Below, piece after piece: positions 2,738 through 32,000 of a stretch of DNA of 32,000 nt (position 1 is the stretch's first letter; each line of letters begins with the position of its first letter). Made by a program: the position numbers and the translations under genes. The DNA comes from Candidatus Mediterraneibacter norwichensis. GTDB taxonomy: Bacteria; Bacillota; Clostridia; Lachnospirales; Lachnospiraceae. The notes under the pieces were generated by a model. That model worked only from the letters and a program-made list of their open reading frames with translations, did not search any database and was not told where the DNA came from. The stretch is taken from NCBI GenBank assembly GCA_019112765.1, contig DXIU01000112.1, positions 1-32,000 on the forward strand, in the 5' to 3' direction.

Positions 2738-4645
2738 TCAGCAGATCTCGGCGCCTGCCGGCATATCTTTTTCCGGAACAACAAGAGCCAGATTGCCTTT
2801 GTCGTCTTCCGCGCAGAGAAGCATTCCCTCTGAGAGAACTCCTGCCAGTTTCGCCGGTTTCAGGTTCACCAGCACCATGACTTTCTTGCCGACCATCTCT
2901 TCCGGCGTGTAGTGCGCCTTGATGCCGGATACGATCTGTTTTACCTGGCTTCCGATCTTTACCTGAGAGCAGAGAAGCTTTTTGGACTTTTTCACTTCCT
3001 CGCAGGCAATGATCTCTCCGACCTGGAACTGCATTGCGCCGAACTGGTCAAATGTAATTTCCGGTTTCGCCTCAATGTCGATCACCGGTTCTTCCTCTTT
3101 GTTTTCTCCGGAAACTTCCTCTGTATGCGGATGAAGTTCTTCCACTTTTTTCATAACTTCTTCAACATCCAGTCTCTGGAACAGAATCTCCGGCTTATCG
3201 GTTACATGTCCGCCGCCCAGCTGTTCCAGAATCTTTTTGCTGGTTGAGGGCATAAAGGACTCCAGAAGCTCCGCGCCCACGGAGATGGACTGAATCAGAT
3301 TCCACAGCACTGTCTCCAGCCGGTCTTTCTTCGCCTCATCTTTTGCCAGTACCCACGGCATTGTCTCGTCAATATATTTGTTGCAGCGTTTGAACAGGTT
3401 GAAGATCTCGGTTATGGCGTCCGCCACTCTCAGGCGGTCCATCTTCTCCTCTACTGCCTTCGGTGTGTTTTCCGCTACCGCTTTCAGATCCGCGTCTACA
3501 TCCTCTGTCACATTCTTGTCTGTCACTGTGCCGCCGAAATATTTATTTGTCATGGAAACCGTACGGTTTACCAGATTGCCCAGCGTATTTGCCAGATCGG
3601 AATTCAGACGCTCCACCATCAGCTCCCAGGTAATCACTCCGTCATTTTCAAAGGGCATCTCGTGAAGCACGAAATAACGCACCGCGTCAACGCCGAAGAA
3701 ATCTACCAGTTCATCTGCATAGAGCACATTTCCCTTTGATTTGCTCATTTTTCCGTCGCCCTGGAGCAGCCACGGATGGCCGAACACCTGCTTGGGAAGC
3801 GGCAGGCCGAGCGCCATCAGGAAGATCGGCCAGTAAATCGTATGGAAACGGATAATATCCTTTCCGATCAGATGCAGGTCTGCCGGCCACAGTTTTTCAA
3901 ACTGCTCTGTACTGTTTCCGTCCGCGTCATAGCCGATTCCGGTAATATAGTTGGTAAGGGCGTCAAGCCACACATATGTGACATGCTTCGGGTCAAAATC
4001 AACGGGAATTCCCCATTTGAATGAAGTTCTGGATACGCACAGATCCTGCAGGCCCGGGAGAAGGAAATTGTTCATCATCTCGTTTTTCCTGGAAACCGGC
4101 TGGATAAACTCCGGGTGTTCGTTGATATACTCGATCAGACGGTCTGCGTATTTGCTCATTTTAAAGAAGTACGCCTCCTCTTTTGCCGGCTGTACTTCCC
4201 GTCCGCAGTCCGGACATTTTCCGTCCACAAGCTGGGACTCGGTAAAGAATGACTCACATGGCGTACAGTACAGTCCTTCATAGTATCCTTTATAAATGTC
4301 GCCCTGGTCATACAGTTTTCTGAAAATCTTCTGCACCTGGCGCTCATGGTCCTCGTCTGTGGTGCGGATGAATTTGTCGTAGGATGTATCCATCAGATCC
4401 CAGATTCTCTTAATCTCCGCGGATACATTATCCACAAACTCCTTCGGTGTGACTCCGGCCTCCTCCGCTTTCAGCTCGATCTTCTGGCCGTGCTCGTCTG
4501 TGCCGGTCTGAAAGAACACATCATACCCCTGGCTTCTTTTGTATCTTGCAATCGCGTCCGCCAGCACAATCTCATACGTATTGCCGATGTGGGGCTTGCC
4601 TGAAGTATAGGCAATGGCTGTTGTAATATAATACTTCTCTTTCAT
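2738..4645 (-). CDS. metG: Methionyl-tRNA synthetase with C-terminal EMAPII/Trbp111-like tRNA-binding domain
   Basis: The HIGH motif (PHIGN), the KMSKS motif, the Cys knuckle CTPC...CPDC and the C-terminal OB-fold tail (LVNLKPAKLAGVLSEGM) are all present. A GGAGGA SD sequence precedes ATG 4645. Confidence 0.97.
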   Translation of the reverse strand: MKEKYYITTAIAYTSGKPHIGNTYEIVLADAIARYKRSQGYDVFFQTGTDEHGQKIELKAEEAGVTPKEFVDNVSAEIKRIWDLMDTSYDKFIRTTDEDHERQVQKIFRKLYDQGDIYKGYYEGLYCTPCESFFTESQLVDGKCPDCGREVQPAKEEAYFFKMSKYADRLIEYINEHPEFIQPVSRKNEMMNNFLLPGLQDLCVSRTSFKWGIPVDFDPKHVTYVWLDALTNYITGIGYDADGNSTEQFEKLWPADLHLIGKDIIRFHTIYWPIFLMALGLPLPKQVFGHPWLLQGDGKMSKSKGNVLYADELVDFFGVDAVRYFVLHEMPFENDGVITWELMVERLNSDLANTLGNLVNRTVSMTNKYFGGTVTDKNVTEDVDADLKAVAENTPKAVEEKMDRLRVADAITEIFNLFKRCNKYIDETMPWVLAKDEAKKDRLETVLWNLIQSISVGAELLESFMPSTSKKILEQLGGGHVTDKPEILFQRLDVEEVMKKVEELHPHTEEVSGENKEEEPVIDIEAKPEITFDQFGAMQFQVGEIIACEEVKKSKKLLCSQVKIGSQVKQIVSGIKAHYTPEEMVGKKVMVLVNLKPAKLAGVLSEGMLLCAEDDKGNLALVVPEKDMPAGAEIC

Positions 4646-4786
4646 TTTTCCTCCTTCCGGGACGCCGTCCGCTTCGTTTTCACCGCGTCCCCGTTTCTGA
4701 TTTACTCTGTCCTTTTCTTCTGCTTTTGTTCCTTCCGACCATTTTCATATCCTGACATGGATTTCAGCTAAACAAAGTTTTCTGCC

Positions 4787-11134: not shown

Positions 11135-11518
11135 CATATCACGTTATTATCCTCTCAGTAAAACCTGACAGCAGTTTATTCTTTTCAGATAAAACAGATA
11201 TTGGACTTAGAGTCTATATAGCAAATATTTTTACTTTTACTACTCTTATTGACCGTTTCACAAGTTTCGTATGCCCTATGCACACCGGTTATAAAGTAAC
11301 CAACTTATAAAATTTGAGCTCCTAACTCAATCAATAATGCAGCTTGACGCCGCGTAAAATATTTGCATGGAGAACTTTCCCTATACCTGCTTTCCATACA
11401 CCAGATATGGTAACACACTATATCCGTAAATTCAAGAAATTTCTGTTTTGTCAGACGGAGATCCGCAGTCCGCTTCGCTGCCTGCCCGTAACCGGACAGC
11501 CGCATCCCTGCTTTCCTG

Positions 11519-12831: not shown

Positions 12832-15465
12832 TTATTTTACCCGCGGGAAACATATATTTACCCGGAACAGGTCTCCATCCAGATAGAGGTCAAATGTTCC
12901 GCCCTGCATCACCGTCAGGCTCTTGGCAATAGACAGGCCCAGTCCGCTGCCCTCTGTACTTCTGGAAATATCGCCCCGGATAAACCGCTCCGTCAGCTCA
13001 TCCGCTGAAATGTTGAGCTGCTGTTCCGATACATTTTTCAGTGAAAATTCCACCTTGTCGTCTCCGATCCGCAAATCCGCATATACACGGGTTCCCGACA
13101 TGGCATATTTCACCGCATTATTGAAAATATTTTCCAGTACTCTCCACATGCGGCGTCCGTCTACGCGGATAACCGCAGGCTCCTCCGGAAGATTCATTAC
13201 AACCATCAGATTTCTTGCAGCAAATTTCTCTGAAAATTCTCCTTCTGTCTGCTGGATCATCTCAGTAAAATTCACATCCATAAACTCCAGGCTGATATTG
13301 CCGCTGCTGACTTTGGATGCTTCAACCACATCTTCCGTCAGTATCTTAAGGCGCTGTGCCTTGGATTCCAGAATATCCAGATATCCCCGGATTCTTTCAT
13401 CCTGTATATTTTCCCGTTTCAGAATATCCACATAATTGATGATGGAGGTAAGCGGCGTCTTAATATCATGTGATACATTGGTAATCAGATCTGTTTTGAG
13501 ACGCTCATTCCGCATTGCATCGTCCACGGCACGATTCAGGCCTCTTCCGATGTCATTCACTTTTTCTGCCAGCGCCTTGTCCTCACCGCGAATCCCTTCT
13601 GTGGCAATCTGGTAGCTCATATTTCCCGATGCGATTTCTTCGATTCCTTCCTTGATCCGTTTCTTTGCAGCCGCGCGGTTCAGCACAAACCAGACCGCCG
13701 CCGCGTCTGCCGCAGCTGCCAGAATAGCCAGCGGAAGACTGCGCCAGAGAATCGCCGCCCACTGGCACGCCAGAAACGCTGTAAACAATACTGCTGCTCT
13801 GGCAGACAGCGCTTTTGCCTCAAATGCTTCATTTCCAAAGACCAGTACCGCGCGCAGCAGACTGTTTTTCCAGAGCGTTTTCCCCTTGAGACGTTTTATA
13901 AAGCTGGCATATCCCGCGAAAAAACATCCGAAGGAAAACAATCCGTAGAAAAATGCAGCCAGTACATCCAAAAACCGCAGTGTAGTGCCGGTCAGAGTAG
14001 AATAAACATTCATATTCGTTTGCTCAAGAAGCCTGGCACCATAATATGAGAGCTCGGCTGTATCCCAGCTGTCTGTCACGCTCCAGTTTTCTATCCCGAA
14101 CAATGCCGTTGTCAATCCCAGCAGCAGCAGAGTCACCCCCAGCCATATTCCGATAATCAGAACCGCCGCGATCTCTGTTTTGCATCTGTCAAATGATGTA
14201 AGGTGTACTTCATTATCTTCCGTTTTTCTTCCTGCTGCCATAGCAGTCCACACAACCGATACAAGAAACAGAATTCCGAAAATAAACATGCAGCGAAGCG
14301 CGGCCTTCAGGAACGGGACATTTTCCCCGTAAGACATACGTGCCTCATAGAACTGATCATTTATAGGATAACTGGTATCTACCGCAATAGCCACCACACT
14401 GTCCATTTTCCGGTCTCCCTCATAGGCCCGTACCTTATCCCATTCTCCGGATTCCGAGATATTCATGTTTGTTTCAAAATCCTTCAGCTTCGGATGGATG
14501 ATCATATACCGCACAGATTCTCCGGATTTCATCTCCCGGATATTATTTTTCAATTCATCATAATTACTGTACTCCTCTTTATTTGTGGCTACCTTTCTGG
14601 TTGCTTCATTTGCATAAATATAAGTAAGATTTGTATTGCCTTCTTCCAGGTACTCCCACCCGTTTTCATATACCAGCAGCTCATCATACAGGCTGCTCAG
14701 AGTGGACGCAATATTTTCATATATAATCGACAGTTTTCCGTTAAGCTGAGGCGTCTCATTCACCACCTGAAGCAGATTGTCCGCGCCGGCCGGAGCATAT
14801 TTTTCGCGCAGAGATTCTCCAAAATTCCAGCAGTCCGTGTAAAGGATATTCCCCTCCGGATCTGTGATGCGCATCCGGTAAAAACCGGAAGTTGTAAGCG
14901 TACCGTCCTCCAGCTGCTGAAGATACTCATCCTGCGTTATCTGATATTCTTCATTATTATCAAACTCTATCCTGAGCTCCCCCCTGTCAAACAATGCCAG
15001 GAAGTCGTCAAGATAATAGTAATAATAATTTCCATCCGGCTGTTCACAGACAATTACGCTGTTATCATCATAGAGCTGCCCCTCGCCTGCATAAAAATCC
15101 TCACCCCAGTCTTTCAGCTCATCCAGTGTATATGCCACGCCGGAATGATTATCCCCTGTTATAACCAGGTTTCTGGAATAATCCATAATGTCCACAAGCT
15201 TATCCGGATTGTAAGCTCCGTCTGTCTCAAACATCTGTTCCAGCCGGATCCGGTTCATGATCTCATACACACTGTTTTCTACTGACATATTAAAGTCTTC
15301 GGAATCTTCATATTCCTGAGTCAGAATCCTCTGGATATCTGACGGATTCACCGTTCCCGCAAGGGAAATCGCTGCCAGAAGTGACGCGGCAAATACCGCG
15401 CCGCTTACAATTCCCACAATTACAGCGACCACTTTCACCACTGTTTTTCTGTACCATCGTTTCAT
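12832..15465 (-). CDS. Sensor histidine kinase with a large extracytoplasmic domain and multi-pass membrane region
   Basis: The H-box VSHDIKTPLTSI, the N-box NAVKYA and the G-box GSGLGLSIAKS are present. The N-terminus has one transmembrane helix, then a ~370-aa hydrophilic domain, then several more transmembrane helices. Confidence 0.92.
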   Translation of the reverse strand: MKRWYRKTVVKVVAVIVGIVSGAVFAASLLAAISLAGTVNPSDIQRILTQEYEDSEDFNMSVENSVYEIMNRIRLEQMFETDGAYNPDKLVDIMDYSRNLVITGDNHSGVAYTLDELKDWGEDFYAGEGQLYDDNSVIVCEQPDGNYYYYYLDDFLALFDRGELRIEFDNNEEYQITQDEYLQQLEDGTLTTSGFYRMRITDPEGNILYTDCWNFGESLREKYAPAGADNLLQVVNETPQLNGKLSIIYENIASTLSSLYDELLVYENGWEYLEEGNTNLTYIYANEATRKVATNKEEYSNYDELKNNIREMKSGESVRYMIIHPKLKDFETNMNISESGEWDKVRAYEGDRKMDSVVAIAVDTSYPINDQFYEARMSYGENVPFLKAALRCMFIFGILFLVSVVWTAMAAGRKTEDNEVHLTSFDRCKTEIAAVLIIGIWLGVTLLLLGLTTALFGIENWSVTDSWDTAELSYYGARLLEQTNMNVYSTLTGTTLRFLDVLAAFFYGLFSFGCFFAGYASFIKRLKGKTLWKNSLLRAVLVFGNEAFEAKALSARAAVLFTAFLACQWAAILWRSLPLAILAAAADAAAVWFVLNRAAAKKRIKEGIEEIASGNMSYQIATEGIRGEDKALAEKVNDIGRGLNRAVDDAMRNERLKTDLITNVSHDIKTPLTSIINYVDILKRENIQDERIRGYLDILESKAQRLKILTEDVVEASKVSSGNISLEFMDVNFTEMIQQTEGEFSEKFAARNLMVVMNLPEEPAVIRVDGRRMWRVLENIFNNAVKYAMSGTRVYADLRIGDDKVEFSLKNVSEQQLNISADELTERFIRGDISRSTEGSGLGLSIAKSLTVMQGGTFDLYLDGDLFRVNICFPRVK

Positions 15466-26581: not shown

Positions 26582-27397
26582 ATGAGTATACAAGGACTTG
26601 ACGTCAGCGAATTTCAGGGCGAAGTGGACTGGGAACGGGTAAAAGCAGCCGGTTTTCAGTTCGCCATGCTCCGCGCCGGATACGGCGCCGGCACAGAAGA
26701 CCGCCGTTTCCGGCGCAACGCCTCCGAATGCGGCCGGATCGGGCTTCCTTTCGGCGTGTACTGGTTCTGCTATGCCGCGACTCCCGCCGAAGCAGCCGCA
26801 GAGGCCGACAGCTGCATCAGAACCGTTTCCTCCTTCCGGCTGGAATATCCGGTATGCTATGATATCGAAGAGGCTTCCGCCGATTATGTCCGGAAGCAGG
26901 GGGCTCCATTTAACGCTTCGCTGGCCCGGAAGCTGGTCCGGAGCTTCTGCAGCCGCGTGGAAGAGAAAGGATACTTTTCCATGTTTTACAGCAGCCGCAA
27001 CTTTATAGACACCTACCTGGGAAATGATCTCCGGAAGCGCTATGCACTCTGGTACGCCCGATACAGTGAACGTTTCGATGGCACCGGCTGCGGCATATGG
27101 CAGTACACCAGCCAGGGCAGTGTACCCGGAATCAGAGGGGATGTTGACCTGGACCGGGGATTTACGGATTACCCTTCCATAATCAGAAATGCCGGGCTGA
27201 ATCATCTCTCCGGAAGGCCTTCCCGGCCGGAACCGGACTATGTTACCTATGTCCTCCGCCCGGGAGATACCCTGAGTGAAATTGCCGCCAGATTCGGAAC
27301 AACTGTATCCGAGCTTGCCGGGCTGAACCACATTTCCAATCCGGACCAGATCTATGCCGGGGATACCATTCGTATTCCGGAAAAAGACGCGACTTAA
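26582..27397 (+). CDS. GH25 muramidase (lysozyme) with C-terminal LysM domain
   Basis: The N-terminus GLDVSEFQGEVDWERVKAAGFQFAMLRAGYG is a typical GH25 start. The C-terminal LysM domain reads YVLRPGDTLSEIAARFGTTVSELAGLNHISNPDQIYAGDTIRIP. No signal peptide is visible. Confidence 0.88.
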   Translation: MSIQGLDVSEFQGEVDWERVKAAGFQFAMLRAGYGAGTEDRRFRRNASECGRIGLPFGVYWFCYAATPAEAAAEADSCIRTVSSFRLEYPVCYDIEEASADYVRKQGAPFNASLARKLVRSFCSRVEEKGYFSMFYSSRNFIDTYLGNDLRKRYALWYARYSERFDGTGCGIWQYTSQGSVPGIRGDVDLDRGFTDYPSIIRNAGLNHLSGRPSRPEPDYVTYVLRPGDTLSEIAARFGTTVSELAGLNHISNPDQIYAGDTIRIPEKDAT

Positions 27398-27420
27398 GAA
27401 AATCATAATTTTTTTTCGAT

Positions 27421-27620
27421 TTCTTTTAGAGTTTAATCATATTTTTGACACATTTGGTTATTATACTTAGAGCCAGATAGTTGATAAACAACTATCTCCC
27501 CCCTCATAAAGTAATGGCATCCCGGGGGACCGGGATGTCGCACTTTACTCTCATTCCTTTAATAACTATAAAAACAACGGAAACCCGTCAGTCGAGAGGC
27601 TGACGGGTTTTCGCTGTCTC
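27421..27620 (+). ncRNA. Copy 1 of a tandemly duplicated ~200-nt element, a candidate structured RNA with its own terminator (class unknown)
   Basis: Copies 1 and 2 share colinear sequence at a 334-nt offset. Blocks at 27474-27512 (39 nt) and 27539-27560 (22 nt) are identical in both copies. Between them copy 1 has the hairpin catcccgg-ggga-ccgggatg. Hairpin P1 is gatagttg-ataa-caactatc (27476-27495). The terminator stem pairs 27574-27591 with 27600-27617. The strand call is tentative because the terminator looks bidirectional. Confidence 0.5.
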
Positions 27621-27625
27621 TTCCC

Positions 27626-27654: not shown

Positions 27655-27754
27655 TTATTAAGAATTTATTTATTAAGGAGTTAAATTTTAAAAAGTCAAT
27701 AGTGTGCCTGTTTTTCCTTATACTTTCTTTATCAATGCTTTATAATTTTCCTTT

Positions 27755-27950
27755 TTCTTTTATAGTTCACTCATATTTTTGTCACATTTTCCCTTTATAC
27801 TATGTATCAGATAGTTGATAAACAACTATCTCCCCCCTCATAAAGTTCAGACGCTGCAGGGCGTCGCACTTTACTCTCATTCCTTTTTAGATAACCAATA
27901 AAACAACGAAAGCCCGTCAGTGAAAGCTGGCGGGCTTTCGTTGTTTCTCT
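27755..27950 (+). ncRNA. Copy 2 of the tandemly duplicated candidate structured RNA element
   Basis: The identical blocks lie at 27808-27846 and 27865-27886. The central hairpin is replaced by an unrelated one, gacgc-tgcagg-gcgtc. The terminator stem aacaacgaaagcccg (27902-27916) pairs with cgggctttcgttgtt (27931-27945) and carries compensated differences relative to copy 1. Confidence 0.5.
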
Positions 27951-27982
27951 GCGTTCTTCTGTGATTCGTTTTTTATTTGTGA

Positions 27983-28011
27983 TTGTATTTCTTCGGGCAG
28001 ACATTTATAAT
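27983..28011 (+). promoter_or_regulatory. Candidate promoter of the methyltransferase gene, TTGTAT-N17-TATAAT
   Basis: TTGTAT lies at 27983-27988, the spacer is 17 nt, and TATAAT lies at 28006-28011. It sits just upstream of the GGAGGA SD sequence (28019-28024) and ATG 28033. Confidence 0.5.
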
Positions 28012-28032
28012 ACAGGCTGGAGGATTTTTGAC

Positions 28033-30918
28033 ATGAACAATTTTACGGTTTTAAACTATCAGGGCAGTAAAAATAATCTGCGGGATTTTATATATAAAAA
28101 TCTGAAACCATATATTCAGGAAGGAAAAGCCGTCTTTGATATCTTTTCCGGTTCCGCGTCTGTCAGCAGTATGTTCGGGCAGGAATACCTGGTATATGCC
28201 AATGACGCGGAGGCATACGCGTCTATTATCGCCGATGCTTTACTGAATCCGGCAGACATCCCCTCTCCTTCCGCTTTTCTGGAACAGATTGAAGCGGATT
28301 ATGCTGCCATAAAGCAGGCCCTTTGTATCCCTGTTCTTGATTTTATAAATCGGGAAAAGACTGCGCTGAAAGAAAACAATTACCGTGAGCTGAGCGCTGT
28401 TTATGATTCCTATCCTACCGTGTGGAATCAGAAATACTCAGATATTATTCAGAAAGAACTGACTGTTGAAAATATAAGGGCGGCAGATAACTACTATCTT
28501 TTCACCACGTATTACGCATCCAACTACTACGGGATCGGACAGGCACTGGAAATTGACTGTATCATCAAACTGATACACACACGCTTTCCTTCCTGCAGAA
28601 ACGCCCTTCTTATGTGCCTGTTTTATGCCATGAAGGAAACGGTTTTCTCCAAGGACGGACATATGGCGCAGCCCCTGAATCCGGAAAAAAATCAGCGCCG
28701 GCTGTTTCTGCAGCGCAGCAAATACGTATATGAGCTTTTTATAAGAAAGCTTCGGGAATATCTTGCCCTCCCGCTTCCGGAGTACTCCGGAAAGAACCGG
28801 GTCTTTAATAAAAATTTCGAAGAACTCCTGACCATGAATATTTTTTCAGATGTGGGACTTGTATATGCGGATCCGCCTTACACGGATATGCAGTATTCGA
28901 GATATTATCATCTTCTCAATGTTGCGGTCAGATATGAATATCCGGATCTGACCCGCTCCAGAAACGGATATACAAAGGGGCTGTATACCGAAGGCCGCTA
29001 TCAGTCAAAACTGAGCCAGCGCAGTTCTGCCGGAAAATCTCTGGAACGTTTAATCTCCTTCTGCGCCGGCGCCGGGGTCAATCTGGCGTTAAGCTACGCC
29101 TATCCCCAGGACAGAAAGAAACAGGCGACAGACCGCTATACCATTTCCATTGACGAATTAATCCGGCTGGCCCGGAAACATTTTTCACCGGAACGGGTTA
29201 CAGTAGCCGCCCAGTCATACAGCCATGCGAACCACCGCAACAGCACCCAGAAAAAGGTTGTGGAATATCTGATTCTCTGTGGAGATAAAACCGGAAAAGA
29301 GCTGAATTATGATACGCTGAAAAAGCAGATCGCCAATGTTGTCCCCAGCAAGAATAATGCCATGTATAATTCTCATATGTACTGGTCTCAGAAAGCCTAC
29401 AATATATGCGATATCCTGATTCAGACATTATCAGACAGGGGCGGGGTTGTGTTTGATCCTTTCTTAGGCTCAGGCGTTACAGCACTGGAAGCCATCCGTG
29501 ACGATACAGGTAGAAAAGCTGTGGGCTGTGATATTAACGACATGCCCGTCTTTATTTCCAGAACGCTGCTGTCTGTAAACAGCAGCGGAAATATCCGGGA
29601 AATTCTGGACGATTTTCTGGAAAAGCTGACGCCTTTGACAAGGTATTATCGGACAACCTGTCCGGTCTGTCACAAAACAGGAACCATATCCAAAGTTCTG
29701 TTTGATAAGCCGGACCGGCAGAAAAATGTATTTAAAATCAAGACAGTCTATTATTCCTGTCCGTGTACAAAAAAAGGCGTGAAGGAGCCGGACGAAGAAG
29801 ACCGCCGCCTTATGCAGACAGTCCCTGTCCTGGAAAATATAACGGATACCGCTTTACTGGCGAATTCAAAAATCGCGGTCAGTGAAAATGATGATATCAG
29901 AAACATTTTTACCGGAAGGAATCTGGCGGTACTTGATGAAATCCTGACAATCATCCGCGGGTACGAAGACCGTTATCAGAATATATTAAAATACATCCTG
30001 ATGTCCGTGCTTCACCTGTGCAAGATAACAGACAGACATTCCAATTCACAGTGGCCTCTGTGGATTCCGAAGACGGACTGTGTTGAAAAGAATATTATTG
30101 AAATCTTATCAAAAAAAGTTCATAAATTTAACGATGTAATTGCGTTTATGAAAGAGAACTATTCTCATGCCCGGATTGTCAGTTCCTACGATGAACTGCA
30201 GCCCGGCAGCTGTCTTCTGCTGCAGAAAGGCTGCCAGAACATTACCGGAGATGACATTCCCGACGGCGGAGCCGACCTGATCATTACGGATCCCCCGTAT
30301 CTTGAACAGGTCCTGTACTCGGAATATATGCAGTTATACAAACCTTTCCTGGGGTTCGGCTACAATCTGGCGGATGAAATCGTAGTCTCTTCCGCGCCTT
30401 CCAGAGACAAGAACAGGGAGGACTATTTCCGGCTGCTGGACCAGGCCTTTGACATGTGTTCACGAAAACTGAAGCTCCACCGGCATATGTGTCTGTATTT
30501 TCACGACTGCAGCCTGGACGTCTGGAACCGTCTCATCACCATTCTGGAAAGCAGGGGGTTCCGGTTTATCACACAGATTCATATCCGGAAAACTGTTACG
30601 CTGAAAAATATTATAAGCCCGAAAAAATCGCTCAACGGCGACTCCATACTTATTTTCTCAAAGGAGGACGCCCCTGTCGTTCATCACACGGAGACGGAAG
30701 ATATTGCTGAAATTGAGACAGCTATTATCCGGCAGAGCAGAGCTATGATCCGGGCAGACGGCCCCCAGTCCACCCCCGAGCTCTATGACAACGGGCTTAT
30801 GGAACTTCTGATTCAGAACGGCTGGCTGGCCGGACTTTCTCAGAAATACTCTTCCCTGGTCGATATTTTTGAAAAGCATCTGACCTGGGATTCTCAGACC
30901 GGAAAATGGATGATCTAG
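28033..30918 (+). CDS. Fused two-module DNA methyltransferase: N-terminal Dam-like (D12-class) N6-adenine module plus a permuted N4/N6 (DPPY) module containing a Cys4 zinc ribbon
   Basis: Module 1 has NYQGSK (28054-28071), FDIFSGSAS (28135-28161) and ADPPY (28870-28881), the same motif order as Dam (KWAGGK...EPFVGAGS...DPPY). Module 2 has SQK...VFDPFLGSGVT (29452-29475), CPVC...CPC (29659-29766) and IITDPPY (30289-30300), followed by a motif V-VIII-like segment. I moved the start to ATG 28033, which follows the SD sequence. Confidence 0.88.
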   Translation: MNNFTVLNYQGSKNNLRDFIYKNLKPYIQEGKAVFDIFSGSASVSSMFGQEYLVYANDAEAYASIIADALLNPADIPSPSAFLEQIEADYAAIKQALCIPVLDFINREKTALKENNYRELSAVYDSYPTVWNQKYSDIIQKELTVENIRAADNYYLFTTYYASNYYGIGQALEIDCIIKLIHTRFPSCRNALLMCLFYAMKETVFSKDGHMAQPLNPEKNQRRLFLQRSKYVYELFIRKLREYLALPLPEYSGKNRVFNKNFEELLTMNIFSDVGLVYADPPYTDMQYSRYYHLLNVAVRYEYPDLTRSRNGYTKGLYTEGRYQSKLSQRSSAGKSLERLISFCAGAGVNLALSYAYPQDRKKQATDRYTISIDELIRLARKHFSPERVTVAAQSYSHANHRNSTQKKVVEYLILCGDKTGKELNYDTLKKQIANVVPSKNNAMYNSHMYWSQKAYNICDILIQTLSDRGGVVFDPFLGSGVTALEAIRDDTGRKAVGCDINDMPVFISRTLLSVNSSGNIREILDDFLEKLTPLTRYYRTTCPVCHKTGTISKVLFDKPDRQKNVFKIKTVYYSCPCTKKGVKEPDEEDRRLMQTVPVLENITDTALLANSKIAVSENDDIRNIFTGRNLAVLDEILTIIRGYEDRYQNILKYILMSVLHLCKITDRHSNSQWPLWIPKTDCVEKNIIEILSKKVHKFNDVIAFMKENYSHARIVSSYDELQPGSCLLLQKGCQNITGDDIPDGGADLIITDPPYLEQVLYSEYMQLYKPFLGFGYNLADEIVVSSAPSRDKNREDYFRLLDQAFDMCSRKLKLHRHMCLYFHDCSLDVWNRLITILESRGFRFITQIHIRKTVTLKNIISPKKSLNGDSILIFSKEDAPVVHHTETEDIAEIETAIIRQSRAMIRADGPQSTPELYDNGLMELLIQNGWLAGLSQKYSSLVDIFEKHLTWDSQTGKWMI

Positions 30919-30923
30919 AGCAG

Positions 30924-30957
30924 GAAAAGGGGGTTCTCCGAAGAGAGCCCTCTTTTC
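30924..30957. terminator. Bidirectional terminator between the convergent methyltransferase and nuclease genes
   Basis: A 15-bp stem gaaaagggggttctc pairs with gagagccctcttttc, including two G-U pairs, around a cgaa loop. A/T runs flank both sides. The 3' arm overlaps the stop codon of the nuclease ORF. Confidence 0.65.
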
Positions 30958-31502
30958 TATGCATTCCGGCTGCCGTTATAATACTGCCCCGGAAAATACT
31001 TATCCAGCTTTTTCATCAGCTCTGTTCCGTCTGTTGTTCCCACTTCCAGGTCCCTGGCAACTTTTTCGCCGTCCTTTGTATAACCGGAGGTAGTGATACA
31101 GACGGCCGCGTCAAATCCTCTTCTTTCACGCTCCGCGTACAGCCGCTGAACAGGTTCTGAACCCACGTTGTGCACCCAGCGTTTGCACTGGAAAAGCTCA
31201 CGGCATATTCTGCCGTTTTCCTGCCTGGAGGCCATAATATCAACGCCCAGATCTCCGGCGCCTCCGATTCTCACCACATTTTCATATCCCTCTGCCTTCA
31301 GCAGCCGGACAATCAGCTCTTCAAATTCCGTTCCGGTCAGCGTGGAAATATCAACAGCGTCCTCATTCGGTTTTGCAGTGTCCTTCCTCTCCACATAATA
31401 TTTATCTTCTATTACGCAGTAGTTTAAAATCAGGCGCTCAATTTCACTCTGATGGCTTCCTCTTCCAGAATCTGAATGATTGTTTTCGGATTTCCGTCGC
31501 AC
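30957..31502 (-). CDS. Mrr_cat-type (PD-(D/E)xK) restriction endonuclease domain protein; start uncertain
   Basis: GTEFEELIVRLLKAEGYENV...GGAGDLGVDI...LFQCKRW...CITTSGYT matches the Mrr catalytic-domain pattern (D...D...QCK). The track start, GTG 31502, has no SD sequence and overlaps the upstream ORF by 73 nt. The only other candidate start is GTG 31394. Confidence 0.75.
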   Translation of the reverse strand: MRRKSENNHSDSGRGSHQSEIERLILNYCVIEDKYYVERKDTAKPNEDAVDISTLTGTEFEELIVRLLKAEGYENVVRIGGAGDLGVDIMASRQENGRICRELFQCKRWVHNVGSEPVQRLYAERERRGFDAAVCITTSGYTKDGEKVARDLEVGTTDGTELMKKLDKYFPGQYYNGSRNA

Positions 31503-32000
31503 AGGGCGTTTACCAGTTCAAAACAGATATCTTCCAGAACAAATTTCCCTTTCCTCTCCAGAATCCGGCGGATAAATACCGGCATCAGATCATAAATCTT
31601 CGTGTACAGGGCGTCCGAGTCTTCAATATCCAGATAGAGCCGGTTGTCACTGATCTGAATCACTCCTGCGTCCACACTGAAATATTCCAGAAGCAGACGT
31701 CTGATTTTTTCATTATCACTCTCTGAAGCAAGATACTGATATCTGATTCTCAGATCGTCACGCGCCAGCTTTACCGCTCCCGAAAGGGTTACGCAGTCTT
31801 TTGCGTCAAGCAGATGAAAGTATATTTTCCTGACCAGAAGGAACTCATAATTGTCATTTCCTATGTACCAGTATCTGTCCTTCTCATCCAGTTTATAAAA
31901 TGCCGCGATTATTTCATTCATAAATGTATTTGTAAAAGCGGCCTGCTTCCGTATCGTAGGGTCCGTTTTGACAAGATCCGTCTGGTATGCGTACTCAAAT
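31430..32000 (-). CDS. Protein of unknown function, 3' part only
   Basis: The frame stays open upstream of ATG 31921 all the way to position 32000, reading FEYAYQTDLVKTDPTIRKQAAFTNTF before MNEII. ATG 31921 has no SD sequence, so the gene probably starts beyond the window. I recognise no motifs. Confidence 0.6.
   Translation of the reverse strand, partial: FEYAYQTDLVKTDPTIRKQAAFTNTFMNEIIAAFYKLDEKDRYWYIGNDNYEFLLVRKIYFHLLDAKDCVTLSGAVKLARDDLRIRYQYLASESDNEKIRRLLLEYFSVDAGVIQISDNRLYLDIEDSDALYTKIYDLMPVFIRRILERKGKFVLEDICFELVNALCDGNPKTIIQILEEEAIRVKLSA

What the first reader, a model, noticed from the sequence alone, without database searches (positions are those of the whole stretch)
27961..32000. 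Candidate type IIS-like restriction-modification or defence module, cut off by the window edge
This AT-richer block carries three parts. The first is a 961-aa fusion of two methyltransferase modules. It converges on a small Mrr_cat PD-(D/E)xK nuclease ORF, which is preceded by an unknown ORF that runs off the window. Fusions of two methyltransferase modules are the classic solution for asymmetric recognition sites, with one module per strand, as in M.FokI. The minus-strand partner would then supply recognition (the unknown part) and cleavage (the Mrr_cat part). I cannot match this combination to a named system, so it may be a new R-M variant or a larger defence system whose other genes lie beyond 32000.
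Basis: partly seen in the sequence, partly recalled or inferred. Interest (0 to 1): 0.75.

Follow-up and report, generated by a model that had tools for sequence, protein, structure and literature searches.

The report
Restriction-modification system with broken nuclease gene

Summary
The ORFs are real. The block is modestly AT-richer than the rest of the window (45.9% vs 50.5% GC). The plus-strand 961-aa protein fuses two adenine methyltransferases: M1 (D12 class) and M2 (N6_N4 class in alpha order). Each has motif I and DPPY.

The two minus-strand ORFs are not two genes. They are one 794-aa gene broken by a 1-nt deletion (AAA to AA, window 31457-31458). Intact alleles sit at the same chromosomal site in sister strains and in 12 other genomes.

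The intact protein has four parts:
- an M2-like methyltransferase module,
- a linker,
- two winged-helix-like domains,
- a C-terminal Mrr-type PD-QxK nuclease.

The only named Type II enzyme described with this layout is BtgZI. Homology to BtgZI could not be tested here.

M1, M2 and this R/M protein are always adjacent, whether M1 and M2 are fused or separate. This holds from Lachnospiraceae to Leuconostoc and Photorhabdus.

Extending the contig shows nothing further belongs to the system. Beyond 32000 there is only the rest of the R gene, then unrelated genes.

In this strain restriction is probably lost and methylation retained. One sublineage has also begun to lose M.

Verdict: the type IIS-like reading is essentially right. 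The "split recognition and cleavage subunits" and "larger system" readings are wrong. This is a new member of a known kind, of modest interest.

The parts
28033..30918 (+). M gene: 961-aa fusion of two adenine methyltransferases (M1.M2). It is intact.
   Evidence: ORF. Pfam PF02086 and PF01555. PADLOC MTase_II hits. An identical protein is found on 22 public contigs. It is orthologous to separate M1 and M2 genes in L023-L026.
28033..29289 (+). M1 module (aa 1-419). D12/Dam-like alpha-class N6-adenine methyltransferase. YQGSK at 28057-28071, motif I DIFSGS at 28138-28155, motif IV DPPY at 28870-28881.
   Evidence: Pfam D12 hit at residues 9-160. Motif coordinates. Aligns to the stand-alone M1 proteins of L024 and L026 over aa 1-419 at 40-43% identity.
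29308..30918 (+). M2 module (aa 426-961). N6_N4-type methyltransferase in alpha order. Motif I DPFLGSG at 29455-29475, Cys-rich insertion (CPVC 29659-29670, CPC 29758-29766), motif IV DPPY at 30289-30300, then a C-terminal tail.
   Evidence: Pfam PF01555: profile positions 132-213 match residues 412-503. PADLOC PDLC03319 covers residues 448-896. Motif coordinates. Aligns to the stand-alone M2 proteins at 48-50% identity.
30919..30956 (.). 38-nt spacer between the convergent stop codons. It holds an imperfect inverted repeat (GGGCTCTC-TTCG-GAGAACCC on the minus strand) with T-runs on both sides. Probably a shared bidirectional terminator.
   Evidence: Read directly from the sequence. The terminator scan did not list it, so this is an inference.
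30957..32000 (-). In-window 3' part of the R/M gene. The full gene would span window-equivalent 30957-33340. It is 794 aa when intact and is frameshifted here.
   Evidence: Contig extension L001 is identical to the window over the 13,968-nt overlap. Homologs are single 794-aa chains carrying PF01555 and PF04471. An intact allele sits at the same chromosomal site in L021.
31430..32000 (-). End of the truncated 636-aa product (residues ~447-636). It covers the end of the methyltransferase module, the linker, winged-helix-like domain 1 and half of domain 2, then 7 out-of-frame residues (AIRVKLSA) and a TGA stop.
   Evidence: Translation. Domain limits from the AlphaFold model of the intact protein.
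31457..31458 (-). Frameshift site. The window has GAGGAAGCC where intact alleles have GAGGAAAGCC: one A is lost from an A3 run, at codon 629/630.
   Evidence: DNA alignment A1 of the window and L001 against the intact alleles L021, L022 and L008. Protein comparison.
30957..31456 (-). Coding sequence for residues 630-794, now out of frame with the upstream part. It covers the rest of winged-helix-like domain 2 and the Mrr_cat nuclease. FEEL at 31314-31325, GDLGVD at 31239-31256, QCK at 31182-31190. It is translatable only from the weak internal GTG at 31394 (145 aa).
   Evidence: Pfam Mrr_cat E 2e-23. 100% identical to the P0001 C-terminus. E674, D697, D701, Q718 and K720 are invariant. Motif coordinates.

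Best explanation
This is a two-gene Type II restriction-modification system for an asymmetric site (subtype IIS/IIC, 'combined' enzyme), in a Lachnospiraceae chromosome. The products are identical to those of a MAG named Candidatus Mediterraneibacter norwichensis.

The M gene. It encodes M1.M2, two complete N6-adenine methyltransferases in one chain. They would methylate one adenine on each strand.

The convergent R gene. When intact it encodes a 794-aa single chain with:
- an N-terminal alpha-order methyltransferase module, paralogous to M2, that reads the site and probably binds SAM and flips the target adenine;
- two winged-helix-like domains;
- a C-terminal Mrr-type PD-QxK nuclease that would cut at a fixed distance outside the site. 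Two molecules are probably needed to cut both strands, as with FokI.

Methylation by M1.M2 would block this.

The window strain. A 1-nt deletion at codon 629/630 cuts the nuclease off from the recognition module. The strain is most likely restriction-negative but still methylating.

Shown: gene structure, domain content, motif conservation, the frameshift, co-conservation, and population polymorphism.

Inferred: adenine specificity, an asymmetric site, cutting outside the site, dimerisation, and loss of restriction.
For: One gene, not two:
- Homologs are 794-aa chains with PF01555 and PF04471. P0001 is 99% identical.
- DNA alignment shows a single missing A.
- tblastn joins the two window ORFs at residue 629.

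The frameshift is real and lineage-linked:
- The same deletion occurs in 7 contigs from several samples and assemblers and in an NCBI MAG.
- Intact alleles at the same site differ by 9-13 other substitutions.
- A split-allele sublineage (L031) also carries a 29-nt frameshifting deletion in M. That is expected only if restriction is already dead.

The R methyltransferase module is conserved:
- Motif I (D62-P63..G66) and motif IV (T343-D344-x-P346-Y347) are invariant or nearly so across 21 proteins down to 24% identity. Most have DPPY; this clade has DFPY.
- It is collinear with M2 at 25% identity over 470 aa, E 8e-20.

The nuclease:
- E674, D697, D701 and Q718-x-K720 are invariant.
- The C-terminal model (pLDDT 88) matches FokI, the MspJI nuclease domain and the Mrr-like AF1548.

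Co-conservation:
- The R gene is convergent with an M1.M2 fusion in 12 of 12 genome loci.
- In Photorhabdus, Leuconostoc and two metagenomic relatives, separate M1 and M2 genes lie next to R.
- Small HTH controller-like genes are present in several of these loci.

Nothing else is shared in the flanks.

Literature: BtgZI is described with exactly this N-terminal alpha-class methyltransferase plus C-terminal PD-QxK layout. Eco57I and BpuSI are combined enzymes with separate companion methyltransferases (PMC4081073).
Against: - No biochemical or methylome data exist. The recognition sequence, cut position and SAM dependence are unknown.
- Sequence homology to R.BtgZI could not be tested.
- Motif IV in this clade is DFPY rather than DPPY, so the R methyltransferase module may bind but not methylate.
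- PADLOC and NCBIfam have no model that recognises the whole R protein. It hits only MTase_II models and Mrr-type nuclease models.
- Whole-chain structural matches are weak (TM about 0.1-0.3).
- A 145-aa nuclease fragment could still be translated from the GTG at 31394, so residual activity is not excluded.
Confidence: 0.8

Rival explanations
1. A naturally two-subunit type IIS enzyme. A 636-aa recognition subunit would recruit a separate 145-aa Mrr_cat cleavage subunit, in the manner of BtsI or BspD6I, and the split form would be functional.
For: - Both ORFs are intact as such, lie 35 nt apart on the same strand, and are seen on 19 and 34 contigs respectively.
- A similar split is annotated in Halonatronum saccharophilum, as 548 aa plus 161 aa.
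Against: - The split arises from loss of one A relative to 99%-identical sister alleles.
- Nearly all full-length relatives are single chains of 780-820 aa.
- The break falls inside a predicted folded winged-helix-like domain, at helix 628-639.
- The GTG at 31394 has no good ribosome-binding site.
- One split-allele lineage is also losing M. That would be lethal if restriction were active.
Confidence: 0.07
2. Part of a larger multi-gene defence system (BREX-, MADS-, Hma- or DUF1156-type) whose other genes lie beyond base 32000.
For: There are weak PADLOC and NCBIfam hits of the methyltransferase modules to PglXI, mad2, HmaB and DUF1156 models.
Against: - The extended contigs show only the rest of the R gene, then a zinc-ribbon protein, a GH25 lysozyme, a hydrolase and citrate synthase.
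- No helicase, ATPase, PglZ or similar gene is present.
- Flanks are not conserved among 13 loci, apart from an HTH gene and a 315-aa nuclease-like gene in some. Both are absent here.
- The defence-system hits are to the shared methyltransferase fold and fall far below the curated cut-offs.
Confidence: 0.03
3. A Type IV, modification-dependent Mrr-like nuclease that merely sits beside an unrelated orphan methyltransferase.
For: - Mrr_cat is the domain of E. coli Mrr.
- PADLOC gives mREase_IV hits at E 6e-9.
- The nearest structural matches to the nuclease domain include MspJI and AspBHI.
Against: - The nuclease is covalently fused to a methyltransferase module paralogous to M2.
- It is always adjacent to M1 and M2 across phyla.
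- A methyl-dependent nuclease permanently linked to two adenine methyltransferases would be self-toxic.
Confidence: 0.04
4. The frameshift is an assembly or sequencing artefact, or a programmed or phase-variable switch, and R is functionally intact in the cell.
For: - The change is in a short homopolymer (A3 to A2).
- Both alleles coexist in the species.
Against: - The same deletion appears in independent assemblies from different samples and assemblers.
- It is linked to other substitutions: 0-3 differences among split alleles, against 9-13 to the intact alleles. It therefore marks a clone rather than a flipping switch.
- A 3-nt run is too short for efficient slippage, and there is no slippery heptamer near the site.
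Confidence: 0.05

Closest known systems
BtgZI (Type IIS/IIC, GCGATG 10/14), as described in PMC4081073
   Same: - One chain with an N-terminal alpha-class methyltransferase.
- A C-terminal PD-(D/E)xK nuclease variant in which Q replaces E. Here that is D697...Q718-C-K720.
- Both features were checked on the sequence.
   Different: - Homology to R.BtgZI itself is untested, because its sequence was not on hand.
- The recognition site and cut geometry here are unknown.
- The companion methyltransferases are fused here.
- The window copy is frameshifted.
Eco57I and BpuSI (Type IIG/IIC combined enzymes with one or two separate methyltransferases)
   Same: - A restriction protein that carries its own methyltransferase module.
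- Separate methyltransferase activity that protects both strands of an asymmetric site (PMC4081073).
   Different: - Those enzymes have an N-terminal nuclease, a gamma-class (NPPY) methyltransferase and a C-terminal specificity domain.
- Here the order is reversed.
- Here the methyltransferase is N6_N4-type in alpha order with a Cys-rich insertion, and the nuclease is Mrr-type.
FokI system (Type IIS; M.FokI is a fusion of two adenine methyltransferases)
   Same: - A fused two-module methyltransferase.
- A restriction protein with DNA-binding winged-helix-type domains followed by a single non-specific PD-ExK nuclease domain.
- FokI is among the top structural matches for the C-terminal 321 residues (E 2.6e-5, probability 1.0).
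   Different: - FokI has no methyltransferase module in R.
- TM-scores are low (0.17-0.28).
- The nuclease here belongs to the Mrr_cat family, not the FokI cleavage-domain family.
- That M.FokI is a double methyltransferase is from general knowledge and was not tested here.
E. coli Mrr and other Mrr_cat proteins (Type IV)
   Same: - Mrr_cat domain with the D...QxK active-site variant (Pfam E 2e-23).
- A winged-helix-like domain precedes the nuclease.
   Different: - Mrr is modification-dependent and has no cognate methyltransferase.
- Here the domain is fused to a methyltransferase module and is always linked to M1 and M2.

Membership tests
BtgZI-like Type IIC/IIS combined enzyme | N-terminal alpha-class methyltransferase: motif I, then a long insertion, then motif IV | tested here: met
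   Motif I is at residues 62-68 and motif IV at 344-347, with a ~230-residue Cys-rich insertion between them. The Pfam N6_N4 profile end (positions 141-202) matches residues 18-77.
BtgZI-like Type IIC/IIS combined enzyme | C-terminal PD-(D/E)xK nuclease in which Q replaces E | tested here: met
   D697, D701 and Q718-C-K720 are invariant in 21 family members. Pfam Mrr_cat E 2e-23.
BtgZI-like Type IIC/IIS combined enzyme | Sequence homology to R.BtgZI | not testable with these tools
   No BtgZI sequence was available in any reachable source. Only the description in PMC4081073 was available.
BtgZI-like Type IIC/IIS combined enzyme | Cleavage at a fixed distance outside an asymmetric site | not testable with these tools
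   This needs biochemistry.
Type II R-M system (general) | A restriction gene and its cognate methyltransferase gene(s) are adjacent and co-inherited | tested here: met
   12 of 12 complete genome loci, plus 4 of 4 distant relatives, keep R next to M1 and M2.
Type IIS with a double methyltransferase (FokI-like logic) | Two complete methyltransferase modules, each with SAM-binding and catalytic motifs | tested here: met
   DIFSGS/DPPY in M1 and DPFLGSG/DPPY in M2. Both modules exist as stand-alone genes elsewhere.
Classical Type IIG (Eco57I/MmeI-like) | N-terminal nuclease, gamma-class NPPY methyltransferase and C-terminal specificity domain | tested here: not met
   The domain order is reversed and the methyltransferase class differs. 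There are no hits to type IIG models in PADLOC.
Classical Type IIG (Eco57I/MmeI-like) | Cleavage requires or is stimulated by SAM, and R methylates one strand | not testable with these tools
   Conserved motifs suggest SAM binding. The DFPY variant leaves catalysis open.
Heterodimeric Type IIS (BtsI/BspD6I-like) | Large and small subunits are conserved as separate genes | tested here: not met
   Relatives are single chains. The split is a 1-nt deletion in one lineage.
Type IV Mrr | A stand-alone modification-dependent nuclease without a cognate methyltransferase | tested here: not met
   It is fused to a methyltransferase module and always linked to M1 and M2. Modification dependence itself is not testable.
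BREX / DUF1156 / MADS / Hma defence systems | Accompanying signature genes (PglZ, BrxC, DUF499, helicase, ATPase) | tested here: not met
   None is present in 10-kb flanks of the extended contigs. Hits to those methyltransferase models are weak.

The most novel reading that the evidence does not exclude
This protein family, about 20-25 clusters at 50% identity and almost all from uncultured gut and environmental bacteria, could be a distinct and structurally uncharacterised class of combined restriction enzymes. In it, a duplicated copy of the system's own M2 methyltransferase would serve as a base-flipping, methylation-sensing recognition module for an Mrr nuclease. The naturally split allele in this strain might even retain a function, for example as a third strand-specific methyltransferase or a regulator, rather than being a dead gene.
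Probability: 0.12. Interest if true: 0.5.

Novelty: new member of a known kind. Interest (0 to 1): 0.3.

Why it matters
- For restriction-enzyme specialists, this is an uncharacterised family of single-chain, outside-the-site cutters. The intact allele is available (P0001, on contig L021) and could yield new type IIS specificities.
- The family gives a clean example of a restriction protein built from a paralog of its own methyltransferase.
- For gut microbiology, one chicken-gut species carries both intact and frameshifted alleles. That is a natural experiment on loss of restriction while methylation is kept, with one lineage caught starting to lose the methyltransferase too.
- It does not open a new kind of defence mechanism.

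Tried and rejected
- Sequence searches of the PDB with all three products gave nothing useful.
- Rfam found no known RNA in the window or in the upstream repeats.
- NCBIfam has no model for the R protein.
- PADLOC gives only generic MTase_II and Mrr-type hits, with no type IIG or type II REase model.
- Whole-chain Foldseek gave only low-TM matches. Re-modelling the C-terminal 321 residues sharpened the nuclease assignment but not the domain arrangement.
- Literature searches for BtgZI returned almost only cloning applications. The supplement of PMC4081073 gave only the year it was cloned.
- Looking up cluster names for 20 distant representatives did not turn up a Parageobacillus member that could be BtgZI.
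- I looked for an 'empty site' in conspecific contigs, to show insertion of the island. None was found: all 8 contexts carry the system.
- I did not attempt to infer the recognition sequence from k-mer avoidance. Only about 60 kb of unique host sequence was on hand, which is too little.
- My first reading of a TTGACA/TATACT promoter in the upstream repeat was wrong. The spacer is only 11 nt, and the scan does not list it.

Full report
**Observation**

The ORF listing shows a plus-strand ORF at 27961-30918. It is 985 aa from the GTG.

On the minus strand there are two ORFs:
- an ORF ending at 30957, which is 181 aa from the GTG at 31502;
- an ORF ending at 31430.

Translating 31430-31999 shows no stop up to the window edge.

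Pfam gives three strong hits:
- MethyltransfD12, E 6e-17, on the large protein;
- N6_N4_Mtase, E 4e-19, on the large protein;
- Mrr_cat, E 3.5e-23, on the small one.

The in-window piece of the third ORF has no credible hit.

GC is 0.459 for 27961-32000 and 0.505 for 1-27400. That is below every equal-sized comparison window (minimum 0.472).

**Extending the contig**

An exact look-up of the 961-aa protein found it on 22 public contigs. L001 is an ENA chicken-gut metagenome scaffold of 51.9 kb. It is identical to the window over the whole 13,968-nt overlap.

Beyond base 32000 the minus-strand ORF continues to a start codon at window-equivalent 33340, giving 636 aa. After that come:
- a divergent zinc-ribbon protein,
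- a GH25 lysozyme,
- a hydrolase,
- citrate synthase and other housekeeping genes.

No helicase, ATPase or other defence gene is present. The same products are annotated in an NCBI MAG named Candidatus Mediterraneibacter norwichensis.

**The 'unknown' ORF is a methyltransferase module**

The 636-aa protein hits N6_N4_Mtase (E 1e-9) and several PADLOC MTase_II models. It aligns collinearly with residues 431-854 of the 961-aa protein at 25% identity, E 8e-20. The alignment includes motif I (DPFMGSG), a Cys-rich insertion and motif IV, which here is DFPY.

**Two ORFs, one gene**

Homologs of the 636-aa protein are almost all 794 aa and carry both PF01555 and PF04471. P0001 is 99% identical. It reads ...ILEEESHQSEIERL... 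straight across the point where the window ORF ends ...ILEEEAIRVKLSA*.

A DNA alignment shows the cause. The window and L001 have GAGGAAGCC where the intact alleles (L021, L022, L008) have GAGGAAAGCC. One A is missing at window 31457-31458. tblastn joins the two pieces at residue 629.

L021 is the same chromosomal locus in a sister strain. It has the same flanking genes, an M protein 98.75% identical, and an intact R gene.

**Is the frameshift real?**

- The same deletion is in all 7 displayed contigs that carry the identical M protein. These come from different samples and assemblers. It is also in the NCBI MAG.
- A look-up with the neighbouring lysozyme shows 8 distinct conspecific contexts. 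Five have an intact R gene (L027, L028, L030, L033, L034). Three have a split one (L029, L031, L032).
- Split alleles differ from each other by 0-3 substitutions. They differ from intact alleles by 9-13 substitutions plus the indel. The deletion therefore marks a clone, not a switch.
- L031 also has a 29-nt deletion near codon 14 of M, which removes the start of M1. This suggests that restriction is already lost in that lineage.
- An independent split of the same family is annotated in Halonatronum saccharophilum.

**Anatomy of the intact R protein**

An alignment of 21 full-length family members, down to 24% identity, shows the following conservation:
- Motif I: D62, P63 and G66 are invariant.
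- Motif IV: T343, D344 and P346 are invariant and Y347 nearly so. Most members have DPPY; the window clade has DFPY.
- Four Cys residues are nearly invariant (129, 130, 171, 174).
- Nuclease residues E674, D697, D701, Q718 and K720 are invariant.

An AlphaFold model (pLDDT 86, pTM 0.78) gives this layout:

| Residues | Element |
|---|---|
| 1-457 | methyltransferase module |
| 460-473 | disordered linker |
| 476-565 | first helix-helix-helix-hairpin (winged-helix-like) domain |
| 575-651 | second helix-helix-helix-hairpin (winged-helix-like) domain |
| 665-794 | nuclease |

The frameshift at residue 629/630 lies inside the second of those domains.

A separate model of residues 474-794 (pLDDT 88) was searched against the PDB. 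It matches:
- FokI (E 2.6e-5, but TM 0.27);
- the nuclease domain of MspJI (rmsd 4.3 Å over 135 columns);
- the Mrr-like protein AF1548 (rmsd 3.4 Å over 126 columns);
- AspBHI.

**Co-conservation**

In 12 of 12 complete loci from the species-level genome collection, the R gene is convergent with an M1.M2 fusion 63-88% identical to the window's, about 40-55 nt away. These loci come from Lachnospiraceae MAGs, Bovifimicola, Petralouisia muris, bacterium D16-50, Ruminococcus sp. UMGS1662 and Pseudobacteroides cellulosolvens. The wider flanks are not shared.

Four distant relatives have R proteins 27-42% identical. In these, M1 (412-426 aa, D12 class) and M2 (505-549 aa, N6_N4) are separate adjacent genes next to R. 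The four are Photorhabdus heterorhabditis, Leuconostoc mesenteroides and two metagenomic contigs.

The separate genes align to residues 1-419 and 426-961 of the window protein, and all carry DPPY. Small HTH_3 genes, resembling controller proteins, are present in two of the four. The three modules thus stay together across phyla and across fusion and fission of genes.

**Mechanism (inferred)**

- M1 and M2 each methylate an adenine, probably one per strand of an asymmetric site.
- The R protein reads the same site through its M2-like module. The conserved SAM-binding and catalytic motifs argue that this module at least binds SAM and engages the target base.
- The Mrr-type nuclease then cuts nearby.
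- With one nuclease domain per chain, two molecules are probably needed, as for FokI (PMC3273807 abstract).

In the window strain the recognition module (636 aa) is severed from the nuclease. The only possible restart is the GTG at 31394, which has no convincing ribosome-binding site. Restriction is therefore probably lost while M1.M2 is kept.

**Comparison with known systems**

The review PMC4081073 says most combined (Type IIC/IIG) enzymes have an N-terminal nuclease and a gamma-class methyltransferase. It singles out one exception. BtgZI (GCGATG 10/14) has an N-terminal alpha-class methyltransferase and a C-terminal PD-(D/E)xK variant in which Q replaces E. Both features are met here.

The same review notes Eco57I with one companion methyltransferase and BpuSI with two. 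I could not obtain the BtgZI sequence, so membership by homology is untested.

The family is small. A search of 1.84 billion representative proteins gave 41 hits below 1e-30, including fragments, of which about 20-25 are full-length. Only a few members carry a name, and those names are generic, such as 'restriction endonuclease'.

**Rivals**

- Two-subunit type IIS enzyme: rejected because the split is a derived 1-nt deletion inside a folded domain.
- Larger defence system: rejected by the extended contigs.
- Type IV Mrr beside an orphan methyltransferase: rejected by the fusion and the strict linkage to M1 and M2.
- Artefact or phase variation: rejected by independent assemblies and by linkage to other substitutions.

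**Verdict**

This is a real Type II restriction-modification system of the rare BtgZI-like layout, with a fused double methyltransferase. In this strain the restriction gene is broken by a frameshift. It is a new member of a known kind, of modest interest.

Noticed in passing
window 27393-27625 and 27727-27955 (+); third copy at L001 18098-18312; copies in L008 at 13415-13643 and 4525-4741: A ~220-nt repeat unit, 76-85% identical between copies. It has these conserved features:
- an invariant hairpin (AGATAGTTG-ATAAA-CAACTATCT);
- an unpaired C-rich stretch (CTCCCCCCTCATAAAG);
- a second stem with a variable tip;
- a conserved GTCGCACTTTACTCTCATTCC;
- a terminator hairpin.

RNAalifold on 5 copies gives 40 pairs, 7 of them with compensatory changes. 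There is no Rfam family at gathering score. The copies bracket the block M, R, zinc-ribbon gene, GH25. It may be a small RNA gene family or a repeat involved in how the block arose.
   Followed up: partly
L010-L014, L016 and L020 (e.g. L011 6594-7541 and 7529-8020); L015 and L017 have the HTH gene only: In many other genomes the R gene is preceded on the same strand by two overlapping genes that are absent from the window species.
- A ~315-aa protein with two internal repeats, each carrying a D...E-Y-K motif. It has weak Pfam hits to PvuII endonuclease and DUF6998. It looks like a single-chain tandem PD-ExK nuclease.
- A ~163-aa Cro/C1-type HTH protein that overlaps the R start, resembling a controller protein.

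   Followed up: partly
L031 around 11480-11500 (equivalent to window ~28072-28100): One frameshift-allele lineage also has a 29-nt deletion in the M gene, near codons 14-23. M is then called as 915 aa from a downstream start and lacks the N-terminus of M1. This looks like step-wise decay of the system after loss of restriction.
   Followed up: partly
Cluster of P0165 (Halonatronum saccharophilum WP_027340453 and WP_027340451): The same gene family is split independently in another genus. It is annotated as a 548-aa 'DNA methyltransferase' plus a 161-aa 'restriction endonuclease', while a cluster mate is an intact 801 aa.
   Followed up: no
L001 15510-16658 and the equivalent gene in L002-L007 and L027-L034 (just beyond the window's right edge): The zinc-ribbon protein gene next to the R gene varies in length between otherwise near-identical strains: 263, 267, 368, 372, 378 and 382 aa. 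This suggests an internal repeat or a hypervariable region. It has weak PADLOC hits to PD-T4-6 models.
   Followed up: no
L024 1035-1280 and L025 2708-2941: Distant relatives carry short (77-81 aa) HTH_3 genes. In L024 the gene overlaps the R start. In L025 it lies upstream of M1. This is the usual position of Type II controller (C) proteins. No such gene exists in the window locus.
   Followed up: no
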